A stretch of 64,000 nucleotides of DNA from Escherichia coli (GCF_051903065.1 NZ_CP178438.1); one strand, 5' to 3'; shown: positions 24,001 to 36,000, counted from the first letter of the stretch. Made by a program: the numbers.

Positions 24001-27000
24001 CGGTCGGTTCTTACGGTAAAACGACACAACCAAACGCTTCTTATCCTGCAATGAACTGCTTTATTACCGAGTTTAGTGACCGCACAGACACTCACTTTTA
24101 AGAAAAACAGAATGGTAAACAAACTCCATGAATTACAATAGCTCTCTGGCTGCCGCCACAATAGCTTGCGCGGTTAACCCGTACTCTCTCTGTAAAAAGT
24201 CCTGAGTTTCAACCTGGCCATACCGCTCTTTAACCCCCACCCGACGCATGGGCACAGGACAAGTTTCTACAAGCACTTCAGCAACTGCTGAACCTAATCC
24301 ATTATGAATACGGTCATGACTCCAATTAGTTGAATTAGGGGTATAATAGCCACTTTTAAGGTTCTTTCATGGTCACAGTTAACCTTCATTGCTCCTGTTG
24401 CCAGTCCGTTCAGGTTTACCGTCACGGGAAGAACCCAAAGGACATGATCGATTTCGCTGCCGTGACTGTCATCGAGTGCTTCAGCTCACTTACCGTTACG
24501 AGGCCCGTAAACCGGGAGTTAAAGAGCAAATCACTGAAATGGCTTTCAACGGTGCCGGAGTTCGCGATACTGCCCGTACGCTGAAAATCGGCATTAATAC
24601 TGTCATCCGGACTTTAAAAAACTCTCGCCACGAAGAATAACGTCATACCCGGTCGCTCATGCTGATATGGCTCTCATCTGCGAACTTGATGAGCAATGGA
24701 GTTTTGTCGGCAGTAAAGCGCGACAGCACTGGCTCTGGTACACGTACAACACGAAAACTGGTGGCGTTCTGGCCTACACTTTTGGCCTACGGACTGATTA
24801 AACCTGTCGTGAATTGCTGGCGCTGCTTGCCCTTTTACCATCGGTATGTTGACCACTGACGAATGGGGTAGTTACACCAGAGAGTTACCGAAGGAGAAGC
24901 ATCTGACTGGTAAGATTTTTACTCAGCGCATTGAGCGCAACATCTACCTCTGAGAACCCGAATCAAACGTCTGGCCCGCAGAACTATCTGTTTCTCGCGC
25001 TCTGTAGAACTTCATGAAAAAGTCATCGGTGCCTTTATCGAAAAATATATGTTCTACTAATTGGAGTCACCACCTTCGTTTGTTTAAAGAACCTGCTGGT
25101 CCTGCCATTAATATTACCTGCTGATTGCTTCACATCCGGATTCCTCGCACTGCGCGCGGGTTATTGTTTCGTTTTCGGCCACGGGGTCGCCAGGGCTCTG
25201 TTTGCAGGCCATGATGGCCTGACCTGTACTGTTTCTCAGGCACTGAGATGTCCGTTTACGCCATTTGTTCCCGGATATCCTTAACCTCTGACGTTTGTTC
25301 CCTGCCCCTCTGTCTGATAACGAATACGCTCACAACGCACAGTACTGAACAATACCGACAACAACATGTCTTACATGAAATTCGCTGTAACATCCACCGG
25401 AAAACATTTTCAGATATCGGATGAGGTACTACTTCCATTGACAGCGCGAGGTAACAAAATTGATGGTAACTCTGACCATTAACCGTAAACCGCAGGGTAT
25501 TTTCAGTAAATCACCGGCAACGCCGCTGCAGGATAAAACGGACACAGCATACAAAATGAAGGCCGGTGACCAGATACCACAGTTGAACGATAAACAGAAA
25601 CCTGCTGATAAAACACCGTGGCGACATGACAAAACGCCAGAGCAAAAACCGTAAGCGCATTATTCGTCTTGTGGAACTCTGGCCTGAGTCATTCAACCGG
25701 GAAAAAAACAAAACCACTTAAAGTGGGGATACCTGACGACCTGATACAGGATATCGCCATCCGAGAACTGGCGTTTGGCGCTGGTACATTACATGCAGCA
25801 GTGGCGTCTTATGTGCAGTCTCCGCGCTATTACCGTGCGTTAATAGCAGGTGGCGCCCGTTACAACCTGAACGGTCAGCCGTGCGGGGAAGTGACACCAC
25901 AGGAACAGAAAGAGGCAGAGACCCGTTTAATGATGCTGAATGACCGACGAAAAGCCAGAAAACCTCGTTGACTGCACAACTGCGCTGATTCACTGAGCTG
26001 TAATCAATGTACAGCGCTGTACCGGACGATGGGTAATGGCGATCACAACCGGTAACCCCAGAGACAATGCGACTGTTTTTAACGCAACATACTGGCCAGA
26101 TGTATCACCCCGGGCAACCCGAAAACACCTTTCAACCTGGCATTGTCCGCCAGCGCTTATCACCTTCCAGGTCTGTTGCAATAAATCCACCCGTTGCGAA
26201 CATTCTTCATCAACCGTGGCACTGGCCCGCGGATGGCAAATGCTCGTCTGGCTGAGCAGCAACAGGCATCGTATTGTTGCTCCTCCATGTTGTTCCCGCA
26301 ACCAGCGTAATACCACCGGCGAGGATGGACAGGCAGTGTGATTACGCTCAGTAATACGTTCGTGCACCTGTCGGTAAAAGGAAGTACAGAATGCCTGAAT
26401 CTGTTGCCCGTTGATGTTTCCTTCAGCCGAATGGAGCGTGAAGTGGACTGCCAGCAGACGCGGCCAGTGGTCCACCGCCTGCTGAACAAAACGCCGGATG
26501 TCTCCCGGCTCTGAAATTAAGGCTTCGGTTATTTGCACGAAATGTTCCTTTTCAAACCCTGTTGAATTTTGTTAAGCCGGTGCAGACACACGGGAAGGTG
26601 CGCATCAACACCGGTGTAATGCCAGTTATAAACAATGTGAATGGAATGACGAATCAGTCAGGAAAGAGCTACAACCTGCTGGCTGACCGGAGAGGGTCAG
26701 CAGGAAAATGAACGGTAATGTCGCCAGCACCAGGGACAGGGCTGATTTCCGCAATACCAGCGCCGGCATTTTGCACATTGCCAGCGTACCGGCATCACAA
26801 CACGTTTCATGCTGCTGCTCCTCGTGATTCCTCAATTCGCTGCTGCATCCACTGCTCCACTTCACTTTTGTACCAGCGGCTGCTGCGGCCCAGCTTGATG
26901 GGTTTCGGGAAATGGCCTTCACTGATCAGCTTGTAAAACCATTTGTCGGTCATACCGGTGAAACTGGTGATGTAGTTCATGTCGATCAGGGGATCGTCAG

Positions 27001-33000: not shown

Positions 33001-36000
33001 ATACTTCACGAGATAACAGGCTCTCTCCATGGCTTTCTGCATCGCTTCCACATCACCACGCTTGACCCAGAGAACAGCGGCTTCACCCGGCTTTTTGTCT
33101 GAAGCCTTCCTGGTTTCAGAACATCCACCCGACAAAGGCGTATCATCGGAAGAAGGGCGAGCATCAGATGATGTCGGTTTACGGAAAGGCGTCCGCCTGG
33201 AAAAATGAACCAGTCCATTACCCTGCCAGGGCTCGAGATGCAGAGCACTGCACCATGCCAGCTTGATCAGCGTCGCCAGCGAAGAAGGAACGGTGAAATC
33301 CCCTGGCGAGCACCAGGTATCTTTGTTGAGCAGTAATATCACGTGATAATGTTTCCTGCCTTTTTCCTTGCCAAACTCCCGACACCAGAAATAACGCAGA
33401 GTGGTTGCACGCACACGCTTGTTGGCACGTCGTTTTTTCCGCTGGTAAGCCTGAATTTTTGCTTTCAGGGATTCGAAAAAACGAGAAATCACTGCTGAAT
33501 CTAAATCGGTATCCATAATAGTGGCAGGCATATACTCAGGAAAACGTAAATCCACCCGAATTAACGAGACGGCACGGTGCTGCACTAGGGCACTGTCGAG
33601 AAGGCTGTCAAAACGGGATAACCAGTAAGCATTGTGTATTGGTTGATTCATGATGAGAGATCTCCGTTGATTTGGATTGACTTCACATCATTAATCACTG
33701 CGGTAAAACTTTACGGCATCCCGCCATTGAGCAACGCCAATGGCTCCTGATTAAAACAGAATGAATCCCCCACGAAGAAAAGATAAACCTACACGCAGGG
33801 TAAAACACACAACAACGGCATAAATGGTTTTTAAAAACTACAAAGCCCGAAGGGAAACGGATCAACAGAACGTGCAAACAAAACACCAAAAACGCAATCA
33901 GAACGCTTTCTGCTGCTGTGAATCAACAACAATACCAAAACCTACAGCTTAACCACAAAACTCAATCACAGAGCCGAATAGCGCGTTTAAAACCTGTTTA
34001 CAGATAACCCTGCCCCGAGAACAAAAACCACCAACATCAGAATCGATTTTCTTATCCTGAAAACGTTACTTTTCAACACACCATAAAAACGATTAACCAT
34101 CGATAACGTAAATCTCATCTGAATCAAAACACCAGAACCAATCATCACGCTTTTTCTGAAAAGAGCCTTATGATGAAGATAATCACCTTGCACTGAGAAA
34201 AAACACCAGGGCCAGTTAATCATCTCATCAATCTTATCGCTACAAAATCATCCATAAAACCATTTAACAAAATCATCGTAAGCACACAGTAAATCACGCC
34301 AGGTTATCTCAGCCGGATTTGCGTTTTACATAAAAACACTTGTCTCAGGTTAACGACTAAAAACACGAAAACTCATAAAAGGTTAAATGTAACATCAGAA
34401 AAATAGAATATCATATTGATTGCTTAAACAGGAAAGATTGTTTTGTAGTAGCATTAAGCTGATTTTAGTTAACGTAAAAACAGGACTGACAGGTTTACTA
34501 AACTGGATGTGTATCAGACAAAGCAATGTGTATAACAATACTTAATGAAAACACTTGTAGAATTGTTTATGAAAACATGTGTATGTCTGGTAAAACACTT
34601 AGTAGAAAATACGTGTATAACACTTACTGAAATGCTTAGTAAAAACACTTAGTAAAATATGTGTAGAATTATCTATTTAAAAAGATATGTATATAACACT
34701 TAATAAAAACATGTGTATATAGTATCATACCGACATTCTCAACATCTTCAGACACTCATGCAGACTGAATGTTCGTTTCAGTTTTTCACGGCCAGCATGG
34801 GGATTTTTGTTCTGAAAACGGAGCAGATTTACTCTGGAATTATTTTTCTGTCCCCGTATTTCAGGCCCCAGAAAAGACAATCCGAAGCAAACCGTTTGTC
34901 AGCTTCCATATCATCTTTTACCCCCGGAAAGTGATCGCGTTTTACAACCAGAATGACAGCCATACTGATTATGTCGTCTCCCGGCCCCCTTCACATATAA
35001 CATGCATGCCTGTCATTGCTTACTGCTCCACATGACAGGATTTCACATACAGGATGCGCATTCAGTGTTTTTATCGCCACTATAACAGACAGATTACTGT
35101 CGCTTTTACTCTTCAGATTGTTAATCTGACCACAAGAACAGTCGAACAGTACAACGACACACCCAAGGAGGATATGAGCAGTAGTTGATAGCATGTTTTA
35201 ATTTATTATGAATAGATCAAGAATAGATCGTGAATAGTTAGAGAATAGTTCTTCAGCATCTCACAGAGTGATCAAGCCTTGAAGTGATTGCTTTTTGAAC
35301 ACAAGTCCGGATGCAATGTTTTTTTGTTAACTTCCTTGCATATTCGATTTCCATGTGATAGTGAAAATCACCAGAAGAGAATGCGATTGAGGCGTAATCA
35401 GATGAAACAATATGAAGATGGTTATAACGTGAATGGATATAGCTGGGAAAATGAAACAATTGAGTATTTGTTGAATGATAAACAACTGACAGATAATCAC
35501 ATACCTGAATGGGTTAAAAAAAATGAAATTGCAGCATTCTGGTTCTGGTTAGTTATAATTAACACAGATCCCAAACTCCTTGGGGTTCGTAATGAATTAG
35601 GGTTCAATACAGCCATGATGGGGCTGATTCCTGCGGGGAGTATACCCATAACAACAATTCCTTCAGATCATGAAATGAGACTGGATGTTATAAGCAAATG
35701 GATTAATGCATTAATCCTTGACAATCAATCAGATTGCTTCATCTCAACAATGCATCAAAACTGGCTGCAGATCGAAAAGAGAAACGAAGCCAAATGGCTT
35801 AAAAAGAATACAGAACAACTCGAATGGGCATGGAAATATATCAATGCACGCATCCCGCACACGTATCTTTCCTGGTTTTATCCTGTAAGTGATAACGAAA
35901 GATACATTGCTATCGTAGTTTTACTAAAAATTTTATTCCCCGCAGATACACCATACTTACAGCAGCCAAAAGTACTTCACTATGGGGTTGCCGCAAAAGA

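What the first reader, a model, noticed from the sequence alone, without database searches (positions are those of the whole stretch)
25990..33651. Array of YagK/YfjJ (Gp2-like) paralogs around a 1.6-kb ORF-free AT-rich tract with a purine-rich segment
Three to four paralogs of the inovirus Gp2-like family, all on the minus strand, surround an ORF-free AT-rich stretch (about 28560-30130). Inside it, 29340-29530 is strongly G+A-rich on the plus strand with repeated atgg/gaag motifs and no open reading frame. This could be an H-NS-silenced region, a regulatory or origin-like region of the element, or a noncoding RNA locus.
Basis: seen in the sequence. Interest (0 to 1): 0.35.

Follow-up and report, generated by a model that had tools for sequence, protein, structure and literature searches.

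The report
Long leader before an island nuclease operon
The gene-free AT-rich stretch is most likely the unusually long upstream control region of a nuclease-plus-regulator operon in an E. coli pathogenicity-island backbone; most of it drifts neutrally, and only a few short pieces, including one 31-base element shared across genera, are under real constraint.

Summary
Window 28535-30130 has no ORF over 51 aa, is the lowest-GC kilobase of the 64 kb, and holds its strongest purine skew (29366-29527). ATGGAT is tenfold enriched on one strand. Only two flanking proteins (188 aa, 243 aa) are clear YagK/YfjJ members; the 182-aa protein is probable and the 201-aa protein unproven.

About 1 kb of the tract travels with the 188-aa gene in ~1,570 of 5,426 E. 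coli genomes. Most of it diverges at the neutral rate or faster (K 0.1-0.4; dS 0.06-0.19). Three parts look constrained:
- the 126 nt next to the gene;
- a 31-nt invariant element (29527-29557);
- the strand composition of the hypervariable purine segment.

The element recurs ~140-160 nt upstream of the orthologous gene in four other genera. It always carries a gene-strand TATAAT/TATTAT and is followed by a C-rich, G-poor leader.

Best reading (confidence 0.42): a promoter/operator plus an expanded, probably H-NS-bound leader with a Rho-loading-type start, driving an HUH-nuclease/AlpA operon. An origin or nick site is not excluded. A structured ncRNA in the purine segment is not supported.

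The distal part holds an unannotated 33-codon ORF or structured RNA with its own terminator. Nothing was tested experimentally.

The parts
25990..26538 (-). p182, last gene of the module; probable degenerate Gp2/YagK-YfjJ-type protein (TIRCLLL where the family has the HUH motif)
   Evidence: No hit in the local Pfam copy. Relatives carry PF27752 and some are named inovirus Gp2 family. PGAP labels the plasmid C5-A homolog 'inovirus-type Gp2 protein'. hhalign against the family profile is collinear but not significant, E 0.45.
26807..27043 (-). AlpA-family winged-helix regulator (78 aa)
   Evidence: Pfam Phage_AlpA, E 2e-10. It is 64-67% identical in the other genera.
27112..27717 (-). p201 (PGAP calls 27112-27684, 190 aa); E. 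coli-restricted hypothetical protein, possible degenerate paralog (EYHVVL at the HUH position)
27968..28534 (-). p188, YagK/YfjJ-type protein with all three HUH-endonuclease motifs and a C-terminal GRPR AT-hook-like motif; first gene of the operon
   Evidence: Pfam YagK_YfjJ_C and REP_ORF2-G2P. The family has 722 representatives. Invariant residues R33, D35, E78, H86, H88, W112, Y156, K159, G181, R182 and R184 are all present in p188.
28535..28660 (-). Gene-proximal conserved 5' region, with an AGGAG Shine-Dalgarno 9 nt before the ATG and an imperfect 21-nt inverted repeat (28546-28566 / 28608-28628)
   Evidence: K about 0.06, at or below the dS of p188. 94-99% column conservation, inflated around 28631-28652 by the search pattern. 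IR I2. A short stretch (AGCACTtAAA) aligns with the other genera.
28664..29015 (.). Dispensable 352-nt segment bounded by 25-nt direct repeats (28636-28660 and 28982-29006)
   Evidence: Absent from the short allele in 6 loci. Direct repeat D1. K 0.1-0.4, neutral or faster.
28658..29508 (+). Array of oriented ATGGAT(A) motifs at 28658, 28704, 29016, 29020, 29135, 29255, 29302 and 29503, with one inverted copy at 29560; several sit in a longer GTWACAGAAT..ATGGATAC unit
   Evidence: 8 against 0.79 expected, 0 of 2000 shuffles. Every variant keeps 3-8 on this strand and 0-1 on the other. Four sites are retained in 77-93% of variants against a 40% control median.
29100..29365 (.). Better-conserved internal block (about 90% column conservation) with overlapping weak promoter-like sites on both strands
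   Evidence: K is still 0.16-0.20, so constraint is weak.
29366..29527 (-). Hypervariable purine-rich (+ strand) segment, which is a C/U-rich, G-poor, unstructured start of the putative leader on the - strand; rut-like in composition
   Evidence: Length 69-208 nt, 37 distinct sequences in 57 variants, purine 72-78% and C 2-6% in all, with 9-nt GGAGAAGGT expansions. C-creating substitutions are relatively depleted. MFE is about -1 kcal per 120 nt on the - strand. It has the top C-minus-G window of the - strand in the 64 kb.
29527..29557 (-). 31-nt invariant element TA(C)TAAT[T/A]ATAGTAATAAACCTAAATTAAAA; the gene strand reads TTTTAATTTAGGTTTATTAC-TAT[A/T]AT. Candidate promoter/operator, or a protein recognition site
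   Evidence: Invariant in 57 of 57 variants apart from one T/A site. K 0-0.05 in 5 of 8 comparisons. Found only inside this tract: 1,580 places in 1,369 genomes. A counterpart with 4-5 mismatches in 23 lies ~140-160 nt upstream of orthologs in four other genera, in the same orientation.
29586..29885 (.). Variable spacer present only in YfjI-linked copies
   Evidence: 37% variable columns. Replaced by cargo or IS elements in other contexts.
29872..29892 (-). Terminator-like hairpin plus T-run on the minus strand, about 240 nt downstream of yfjI
   Evidence: Only partly conserved in the 79%-identical group.
29886..30110 (+). Conserved block with an unannotated 33-codon ORF (29938-30039, MKTKLNHRCGACAATVATVAVFSEKFSFPPHNW) and a + strand terminator (30078-30110), convergent with yfjI; candidate small gene or structured RNA
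   Evidence: The ORF is intact in 15 of 15 copies, but variable sites by codon position are 10/7/7. The consensus fold has 58 pairs with 2 compensatory. Terminators. No Rfam, Pfam or NCBIfam match, and the peptide is absent from 15 billion predicted proteins.
30131..31735 (-). YfjI-family protein (DUF3987); the open frame extends to 32017
   Evidence: Pfam DUF3987, E 2e-73. PGAP annotation.
32920..33651 (-). p243, a clear inovirus-Gp2/YagK-YfjJ family member with HUH motifs but no C-terminal GRPR
   Evidence: Pfam E 7e-37. Alignment.

Best explanation
The tract is the upstream control region and greatly expanded 5' leader of a minus-strand operon. That operon encodes p188 (an HUH Rep-type nuclease with an AT-hook-like tail), p201, AlpA and p182, and belongs to the conserved backbone of CP4-57-like E. 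coli pathogenicity islands.

Proposed mechanism:
- Transcription starts at the 31-nt invariant element (29527-29557). Its gene strand carries a TATAAT/TATTAT -10 hexamer with an invariant spacer and no -35, so it probably needs an activator. The operon's own AlpA is the obvious candidate.
- The transcript begins with a C/U-rich, G-poor, structure-free segment (29527 down to 29366) of the kind that loads Rho. In the resting state most transcripts would stop before p188.
- The AT-rich DNA is probably coated by H-NS as well.
- The remaining ~600-850 nt is mostly neutral filler, expanded in the E. coli lineage by duplication and slippage. It carries oriented ATGGAT(A) sites of unknown ligand.

What is shown: the anatomy, the linkage to the operon, the pattern of constraint, and the cross-genus conservation of the element and of leader composition. 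What is inferred: promoter activity, the transcript itself, Rho and H-NS action, and AlpA involvement.
For: - The tract stays attached to the p188 operon whatever lies on the far side: YfjI, dsdA, a sugar kinase, IS3, IS481 or IS21.
- Constraint is confined to the 126 nt next to the gene and to the 31-nt element. The rest has K 0.10-0.40, at or above the dS of neighbouring genes.
- The element recurs ~140-160 nt upstream of p188 orthologs in Citrobacter, Enterobacter, Salmonella diarizonae and Mixta, in the same orientation. It has 4-5 mismatches in 23, where shuffles give at least 6. The proteins are only ~50% identical.
- The gene-strand TATAAT/TATTAT is kept in all 57 E. coli variants and all six other loci.
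- The leader after the element is C-rich and G-poor everywhere: C 32-39% and G 13-16% in other genera, and C 34% with G 4% in the first 160 nt in E. coli.
- The segment's composition is held (C/G on the - strand RNA about 6-16 in all variants) while its sequence and length turn over, and C-creating changes on the + strand are depleted. That is expected for a composition-dependent site. The published rut criterion is a 78-nt window with C/G > 1 (PMC6407284).
- No promoter-like site scoring 9/12 or better lies within 400 nt of the p188 start on its strand.
- No conserved ORF, no conserved RNA structure and no Rfam hit.
- Precedent: P. aeruginosa AlpA loads at an element in the promoter spacer and lets RNAP bypass terminators in a 5' leader (PMC7969949).
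Against: - There are no expression data. No transcription start site, Rho dependence or H-NS binding has been shown for this locus.
- The element has no recognisable -35. AT-rich DNA yields many weak promoter-like sites on both strands, no more than shuffles give.
- In most E. coli variants the element also carries a + strand TATAAT, so the direction of transcription is not settled.
- The P. aeruginosa AlpA site (GGGACGN5GGTA) has no resemblance to this element.
- In three genera the element lies in the loop of a GC-clamped hairpin followed by T5. That could simply be the terminator of the upstream gene, or a hairpin-presented nick site.
- C/G > 1 windows are very common genome-wide, so the rut criterion has low specificity.
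- The purine segment may keep its composition only because it grows by slippage of a purine-rich unit.
- The oriented ATGGAT array is not explained by this model.
Confidence: 0.42

Rival explanations
1. Origin or nick site. The tract, and specifically the 31-nt invariant element, is the cis-acting site of the adjacent HUH endonuclease p188: a rolling-circle replication origin or transfer origin of the excised island. The AT-hook-like tail and the oriented ATGGAT repeats would serve as binding determinants, and the AT-rich or strand-asymmetric DNA would help strand opening.
For: - p188 keeps every invariant residue of an HUH Rep family (RxD, HUH, YxxK) and has a C-terminal GRPR AT-hook-like motif.
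- 32 of 36 family members match Pfam REP_ORF2-G2P, and long relatives resemble phage replication initiators.
- A noncoding region directly upstream of the initiator gene matches the layout of the Ff-phage intergenic region (established knowledge).
- In three other genera the element sits in the loop of a GC-clamped hairpin, the classic presentation of HUH nick sites.
- A 31-nt invariant block is longer than a typical promoter core.
- The second Gp2 gene (p243) also has an AT-rich upstream tract with its own direct-repeat array.
Against: - The hairpin is absent in E. coli and Salmonella while the core persists.
- Only the gene-strand -10 hexamer is conserved across genera, which fits a promoter better.
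- A third of the tract is dispensable and IS elements often truncate it without loss of p188.
- K-12 yfjJ and yagK have no such tract or element.
- No DnaA boxes.
- No evidence that these islands replicate, and no functional literature on the family.
Confidence: 0.2
2. Mostly inert filler. The tract is AT-rich horizontally acquired spacer DNA with no function of its own, bound by H-NS like any such DNA and serving as an IS landing pad. The 31-nt element is a relic of the terminator/promoter junction seen in the compact versions, and the motif enrichments are leftovers of internal duplications.
For: - K is at or above dS over most of the tract.
- Length varies from 615 to 1040 nt, and 352 nt are deletable between direct repeats.
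- IS3, IS481, IS21, IS66 and IS256 insertions recur in or next to it.
- H-NS-type features do not exceed composition.
- Orthologs in other genera manage with ~140 nt.
Against: - A relic would not stay invariant over 31 nt in 57 variants and near-identical across genera whose proteins are 50% identical.
- Composition of the purine segment is held with depleted C-creating changes.
- Four ATGGAT sites are retained far above background.
Confidence: 0.2
3. Plus-strand noncoding RNA. The purine-rich segment and the ATGGA (ANGGA-type) motifs belong to a + strand transcript that acts through sequence motifs rather than structure. It could be a protein sponge for CsrA- or Hfq-type binders, or a purine-rich RNA that forms an R-loop.
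For: - Motif orientation is strictly strand-biased, 8:1.
- ATGGA fits ANGGA, with 10 GGA in about 130 nt.
- A + strand TATAAT abuts the element in about 90% of variants.
- + strand terminators exist downstream in YfjI-linked copies.
Against: - GGA count over the ~1-kb tract equals the composition expectation, 19 against 17.8.
- No CsrB/CsrC or any other Rfam match.
- No conserved structure.
- The segment's sequence and length are hypervariable.
- The + strand TATAAT is not conserved in other genera or in the window's own allele.
- No conserved terminator follows in the cargo-linked contexts.
Confidence: 0.08

Closest known systems
AlpA-dependent antitermination units of Pseudomonas aeruginosa (alpBCDE and PA0807 promoters; PMC7969949, PMC9371919)
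   Same: An AlpA-family (PF05930) protein is encoded in the module. There is a conserved element that includes the promoter spacer and -10, and a leader placed between promoter and first gene in which termination could be regulated.
   Different: The binding motif there (GGGACGN5GGTA) is unrelated to this element. Those leaders hold intrinsic terminators, whereas none is predicted on the gene strand here. Here the regulator would lie inside its own target operon. Nothing was tested here.
Rho-dependent attenuators in long 5' leaders of enterobacterial genes (for example the mgtA, corA and rpoS leaders) and Rho/H-NS silencing of horizontally acquired DNA
   Same: A long untranslated leader that starts with an unstructured C-rich, G-poor segment, located in AT-rich foreign DNA.
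   Different: C/G of 6-16 is far beyond typical rut sites. The segment is a hypervariable minisatellite-like array. Rho dependence is inferred from composition only.
Intergenic (origin) region upstream of gene II in Ff filamentous phages, and double-strand origins of rolling-circle plasmids
   Same: A noncoding region directly upstream of an HUH/Rep-type initiator gene, an AT-rich segment, and repeated oriented motifs. In some genera the conserved core sits in a hairpin loop.
   Different: No sequence similarity was tested or found. The hairpin is missing in E. coli. The tract is largely dispensable and neutrally evolving, and no replication of these islands is documented.
CP4-57 / CP4-6 cryptic prophage modules of E. 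coli K-12 (alpA-yfjI-yfjJ; yagK)
   Same: The same gene families (AlpA, YfjI/DUF3987, YfjJ/YagK) and the same island backbone (GTPase, antirestriction, RadC, CbtA/CbeA).
   Different: K-12 has a different gene order and lacks the tract and the 31-nt element entirely.

Membership tests
YagK/YfjJ (inovirus Gp2-like) protein family, PF11726 / PF23343 | Significant match to the family profile | tested here: met
   p188 has E 1.9e-6 and p243 E 7.4e-37 to YagK_YfjJ_C, and both also match REP_ORF2-G2P. This applies to these two proteins only.
HUH endonuclease superfamily (Rep/relaxase type) | Motif I, the HUH metal-binding motif, and a catalytic Tyr in a YxxK motif, in that order | tested here: met
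   R33/D35, H86-x-H88 and Y156-x-x-K159 are invariant across 36 diverse family members and present in p188. This is sequence-level only.
HUH endonuclease superfamily (Rep/relaxase type) | HUH fold and nicking/joining activity on single-stranded DNA | not testable with these tools
   No solved relative is detectable by sequence. No structure model of p188 was made because both prediction jobs went to p201 and p182. Activity needs biochemistry.
Replication origin (iteron or rolling-circle type) | Initiator-binding repeats plus a nick site or DnaA boxes, required in cis for replication | tested here: inconclusive
   Oriented ATGGAT repeats and an invariant 31-mer exist. There are no DnaA boxes, no conserved hairpin in E. 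coli, and a third of the tract is dispensable. Function in cis is not testable here.
Known noncoding RNA family (Rfam) | Covariance-model match at or near the gathering score | tested here: not met
   No match inside 28535-30130 at E of 1 or less. Only sub-threshold chance hits appear at E up to 10.
Structured noncoding RNA (any) | Conserved secondary structure with covariation | tested here: not met
   For 28500-29640, SCI is at most 0.4 with z about 0 on both strands, and SCI is high only where sequences are near-identical. The distal block 29886-30110 is a separate case, suggestive but inconclusive with 2 compensatory pairs in 9 sequences.
Rho utilisation (rut) site | At least 70-80 nt of unstructured RNA with C>G and regularly spaced C (PMC6407284) | tested here: met
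   The best 78-nt window on the - strand RNA has C 28-49% and G 3-6% in all 57 variants. MFE is about -1 kcal per 120 nt. Composition only; transcription and Rho dependence were not tested.
H-NS-bound (xenogeneically silenced) region | AT-rich, TpA-step-rich DNA; binding shown by ChIP | not testable with these tools
   Composition fits: the lowest GC in the window and 105 TpA per kb against 46. High-affinity motif counts and curvature do not exceed shuffles. No ChIP data are available, and K-12 lacks the locus.

The most novel reading that the evidence does not exclude
The 31-nt invariant element is the recognition and nick site of the YagK/YfjJ HUH endonuclease. The C-depleted, strand-asymmetric segment beside it helps strand opening. 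This ubiquitous 'backbone' module of E. coli pathogenicity islands (HUH nuclease + AlpA + YfjI helicase-like protein) would then be an unrecognised rolling-circle replication or mobilisation system for excised islands, switched on by AlpA.
Probability: 0.15. Interest if true: 0.75.

Novelty: new member of a known kind. Interest (0 to 1): 0.38.

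Why it matters
The module occurs in about 29% of complete E. coli genomes (1,572 of 5,426), often next to virulence or resistance cargo: pap, ireA and dsdCXA in related loci, and floR, tet(A), sul2 and CTX-M-55 in an island identical to the window over the tract (strain H9Ecoli). It encodes an AlpA-family regulator, a family known to trigger excision of such elements.

Nothing is known about how the YagK/YfjJ-AlpA operon is controlled or what its HUH-type proteins do. This analysis gives three testable handles:
- a 31-nt element conserved across Enterobacterales;
- a leader with an extreme C>G composition that predicts Rho-dependent silencing;
- an HUH-plus-AT-hook protein whose substrate may be that element.

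If the control model holds, it explains how islands keep an excision or replication module silent yet inducible. If the origin model holds, it reveals a replication or mobilisation route for pathogenicity islands. If neither holds, the tract is ordinary AT-rich filler, and most of its conservation is already explained by shared ancestry.

Tried and rejected
- Rfam scans at permissive thresholds: nothing in the tract.
- RNAz-style scan of both strands on 57 variants: no conserved structure.
- Hidden small proteins in 28535-29669: the ORFs that stay intact lie in near-invariant DNA and encode many different peptides.
- DnaA boxes in the tract: none, and near-matches are not enriched.
- H-NS high-affinity motif, A-tract phasing and curvature: not beyond composition.
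- CsrA-sponge idea: GGA count equals expectation and there is no CsrB/CsrC hit.
- Homology between the two AT-rich tracts: none.
- Independent existence of the 29210-29569 sub-segment on conjugative plasmids: it is an IS66-truncated remnant of an ireA island.
- Phage origin of the tract or element: no phage hit, and the single viral-contig match lies inside an unrelated 620-aa ORF.
- K-12 counterpart that would have given experimental data: absent.
- Literature on YfjJ, YagK, YfjI and Gp2-family function: none found, only mentions as island core genes.

Full report
**Where the window comes from.** The region is 100% identical to many E. coli chromosomes, for example strain H9Ecoli. It lies in a CP4-57-like genomic island. 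PGAP annotates nothing between a YagK/YfjJ-domain gene and a YfjI-family gene. The surrounding backbone is typical: a ProQ/FinO pseudogene, an AlpA-type regulator, a GTPase, an antirestriction protein, RadC and CbtA/CbeA. In H9Ecoli, resistance and pap genes lie nearby.

**Checking the observation.**
- Window 28535-30130 has no ORF above 51 aa. Its GC is 34% against 50% for the window, and it contains the lowest-GC kilobase of the 64 kb.
- The purine-rich segment is the most extreme purine skew in the window: 74% purine in 190 nt, about 5 SD out, with 5% C.
- ATGGAT occurs 8 times on the + strand against 0.79 expected (0 of 2000 dinucleotide shuffles) and once on the - strand. No other 1-kb bin in the window has 4 or more copies.
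- Of the four flanking minus-strand proteins, only p188 (27968-28534) and p243 (32920-33651) match Pfam YagK_YfjJ_C and REP_ORF2-G2P.
- p182 is a probable degenerate member. NCBI/PGAP name relatives ~85% identical, and its homolog on plasmid C5-A, as inovirus Gp2 proteins, and its relatives carry PF27752.
- The array is therefore two clear members, one probable and one possible.

**The tract belongs to an operon module.**
- Its first ~1,050 nt (28537-29585) occur at about 80-84% identity in 1,572 of 5,426 complete E. coli genomes, and are never annotated.
- In every context examined they abut the same minus-strand gene string: p188, a ~190-aa protein, AlpA, sometimes a small ORF, and p182. The far side varies between YfjI, dsdA, a sugar kinase, IS3, IS481, IS21 or an H-NS fragment.
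- IS elements repeatedly sit in or next to the tract and sometimes truncate it to 250-330 nt.
- A 360-nt piece found on conjugative plasmids is an IS66-truncated remnant of an ireA island.
- K-12 yagK and yfjJ lack the tract. No phage carries it.

**Most of the conservation is shared ancestry.** I collected 100 metagenomic copies with a 22-nt pattern, which gave 57 usable distinct variants.
- Against synonymous divergence of the adjacent genes (p188 dS 0.06-0.19, p201 dS 0.13-0.50), the tract's divergence is 0.10-0.40 over most of its length. That is neutral or faster.
- Two pieces stand out: the 126 nt next to the start codon (K about 0.06) and a block at 29528-29570 (K 0-0.05 in five of eight comparisons).
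- Conservation near 28631-28652 is inflated by my search pattern.
- Indels are frequent and are not multiples of three.
- No small ORF in 28535-29669 is conserved as a protein.
- An RNAz-style scan finds no conserved structure on either strand, and Rfam finds nothing.

**The purine-rich segment.** Between fixed anchors (29366-29527) the segment ranges from 69 to 208 nt, with 37 distinct sequences among 57 variants, including expansions of a 9-nt GGAGAAGGT unit. Every variant nonetheless has 72-78% purine and 2-6% C.
- Its substitution rate is about 2.5 times that of the flanks and G-creating changes triple. C-creating changes stay flat, and the T>C / A>G ratio is 0.64 against 1.14 in the flank. 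That is moderate evidence that strand composition, not sequence, is held.
- Read on the minus strand, toward p188, the RNA would be C/U-rich with about 5% G and essentially unstructured, with MFE about -1 kcal per 120 nt. It is the top C-minus-G window of that strand in the 64 kb.
- The published working definition of a Rho-loading site is a 78-nt window with C/G above 1 and regularly spaced C. Only 37 of about 4,500 validated K-12 predictions reach C/G of 3 or more (PMC6407284). Here C/G is about 6-16.
- The segment's units (GGGAGTGA-type) look like slipped copies of the sequence that follows the conserved element in other genera. Origin by slippage may therefore explain part of the composition.

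**The invariant element.** At the distal edge, 31 nt (29527-29557, TA(C)TAAT[T/A]ATAGTAATAAACCTAAATTAAAA) are identical in all 57 variants apart from one T/A polymorphism. The block sits between the hypervariable segment and context-specific sequence.
- It occurs only inside this tract: 1,580 places in 1,369 genomes.
- In Citrobacter, Enterobacter, Salmonella diarizonae and Mixta, p188 orthologs are about 50% identical and the gene order differs (AlpA, a 197-aa gene, the p188-like gene, then a p182-like gene). There the best match to the element's 23-nt core has 4-5 mismatches, where shuffles give at least 6.
- That match always lies ~140-160 nt upstream of the ortholog's start codon, in the same orientation.
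- On the gene strand the shared core reads TTAATTTAGGTT[T/A]ATTA[C/A]-TAT[A/T]AT. The -10-like hexamer is kept in all E. coli variants (31 TATAAT, 26 TATTAT) and all six other loci. There is no -35.
- The leader that follows is C-rich and G-poor in every genus: C 32-39% and G 13-16% elsewhere, and C 34% with G 4% over the first 160 nt in E. coli.
- The architecture 'element, C-rich leader, gene' is therefore ancestral. The E. coli lineage has stretched the leader from ~130 nt to 615-1040 nt. A short allele lacks exactly 28664-29015, which is bounded by 25-nt direct repeats.
- In three genera the element also lies inside a GC-clamped hairpin followed by T5. That could be the upstream gene's terminator or a hairpin-presented site. 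The hairpin is missing in Salmonella and E. coli.

**The neighbouring proteins.**
- An exhaustive search found 722 representatives of the p188 family, many of them 340-400-aa proteins carrying the domain C-terminally.
- In a 36-member alignment averaging 19% column identity, the invariant residues are R33, D35, E78, H86, H88, W112, Y156, K159, G181, R182 and R184.
- These correspond to the three motifs of HUH endonucleases plus a C-terminal GRPR, which resembles an AT-hook. The AT-hook reading is from my own knowledge of that motif.
- p188 keeps all of these residues, and 32 of 36 members match REP_ORF2-G2P. No solved structure is detectable by sequence.
- The literature holds no functional study of the family. 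Gp2-like proteins and AlpA are noted as core genes of integrase-bearing islands, for example in Pseudomonas (bioRxiv 10.1101/2024.08.29.610337).

**Most likely mechanism (confidence 0.42).**
- The tract is the promoter/operator plus a long leader of the p188-p201-alpA-p182 operon.
- The invariant element is the promoter region. It lacks a -35, so it is probably activator-dependent.
- The transcript starts with a Rho-loading-type segment, and the AT-rich DNA is probably H-NS-bound. The operon would therefore be silent unless an antiterminator or activator acts.
- P. aeruginosa AlpA gives a family-level precedent. It recognises an element in the promoter spacer and lets RNA polymerase bypass terminators in the 5' leader (PMC7969949). 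Its motif is unrelated to this element, and AlpA's role here is pure inference.
- The oriented ATGGAT(A) sites are unexplained. Every variant keeps 3-8 on one strand, and four sites are retained in 77-93% of variants against a 40% control median. They may be protein-binding sites or leftovers of duplication.

**Rivals.**
- Origin or nick site for the HUH protein (0.20). In favour: the HUH motifs, the AT-hook-like tail, the hairpin presentation in some genera, and the length of the invariant block. Against: loss of the hairpin in E. coli, the dispensability and neutrality of most of the tract, absence of DnaA boxes, and orthologs that lack any tract.
- Inert filler with a relic element (0.20). 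This fits the neutral rates and IS traffic. It does not fit 31 invariant positions conserved across genera.
- A + strand motif-based RNA (0.08). This fits only the strand bias.
- H-NS binding is compatible with all of these and could not be tested.

The distal 545 nt (29586-30130) exist only in YfjI-linked copies.
- Block 29886-30077 is much better conserved than its surroundings.
- It holds a 33-codon + strand ORF (29938-30039) that is intact in 15 of 15 copies down to 79% DNA identity. An AGG lies 7 nt upstream, and a conserved hairpin with a T-run follows at 30078-30110.
- Variable sites show no third-position excess (10/7/7). The consensus fold has 58 rarely broken pairs, two of them compensatory.
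- The peptide matches no family and has never been predicted as a protein.
- It may be a small gene, a structured RNA, or both. It is convergent with yfjI.

**Verdict.** The tract is a composite whose bulk is neutral AT-rich leader or spacer. The interesting parts are small: a cross-genus 31-nt element, a composition-constrained C>G leader start, and an unannotated small ORF/RNA.

Noticed in passing
window 34508-34725 (within the AT-rich, ORF-free 33652-35287 upstream of p243): About seven direct repeats of (A)TGTGTATAACACTTA / AAAACACTTAGTA units lie in 200 nt of 27-30% GC. This iteron- or operator-like array is not homologous to tract 1. One unit fits the relaxed DnaA box, and near-matches are enriched (6 against 1.6 in shuffles). 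The surrounding 500 nt occur in 1,554 E. coli genomes, up to 8 places per genome, and are never annotated.
   Followed up: partly
window 29886-30110: An unannotated 33-codon + strand ORF (29938-30039) with its own terminator runs convergent with yfjI. It is intact in 15 of 15 diverged copies but shows nucleotide-level rather than codon-level conservation, and a plausible conserved fold. It could be a small protein, a type-I-toxin-like gene or an sRNA.
   Followed up: partly
p188, window 27968-28534 (C-terminus), and alignment A4: The YagK/YfjJ family ends in an invariant GRPR(K) motif that resembles an AT-hook. Combined with the invariant HUH and YxxK motifs, this suggests an AT-rich-DNA-directed nuclease. 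p243 lacks this tail.
   Followed up: partly
window 28636-28660 and 28982-29006: 25-nt direct repeats bound a 352-nt segment that is precisely absent from a short allele seen in six metagenomic loci. The tract therefore grows or shrinks by repeat-mediated events.
   Followed up: yes
L013-L018 (Citrobacter, Enterobacter, Salmonella diarizonae, Mixta), ~140-210 nt upstream of the p188-like gene: In three of these genera the conserved element lies in the loop of a hairpin, GGGGAGTG...CACTCCC followed by T5 (about -16 kcal). This looks like a terminator of the upstream 197-aa gene overlapping the putative promoter of the next gene.
   Followed up: partly
L001 (strain H9Ecoli) 5600-14400 and 33900-36400, corresponding to window flanks: In a strain identical to the window over the tract, the same island carries floR, tet(A), strAB, sul2 and an ISEcp1-CTX-M-55 insertion inside the CbtA toxin gene. 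This chromosomal island acts as a resistance platform.
   Followed up: no
L008, L009, L010 (related islands): H-NS-family paralog genes and ProQ/FinO-family genes are recurrent neighbours of the module, so the islands often bring their own nucleoid-silencing and RNA-chaperone homologs.
   Followed up: no
window 32028-32181 (-): A sub-threshold Rfam hit to Xanthomonas sRNA sX15 (29.8 bits against a gathering score of 55, E 0.13) lies just upstream of the annotated YfjI start, inside the extended ORF. It is probably chance.
   Followed up: no
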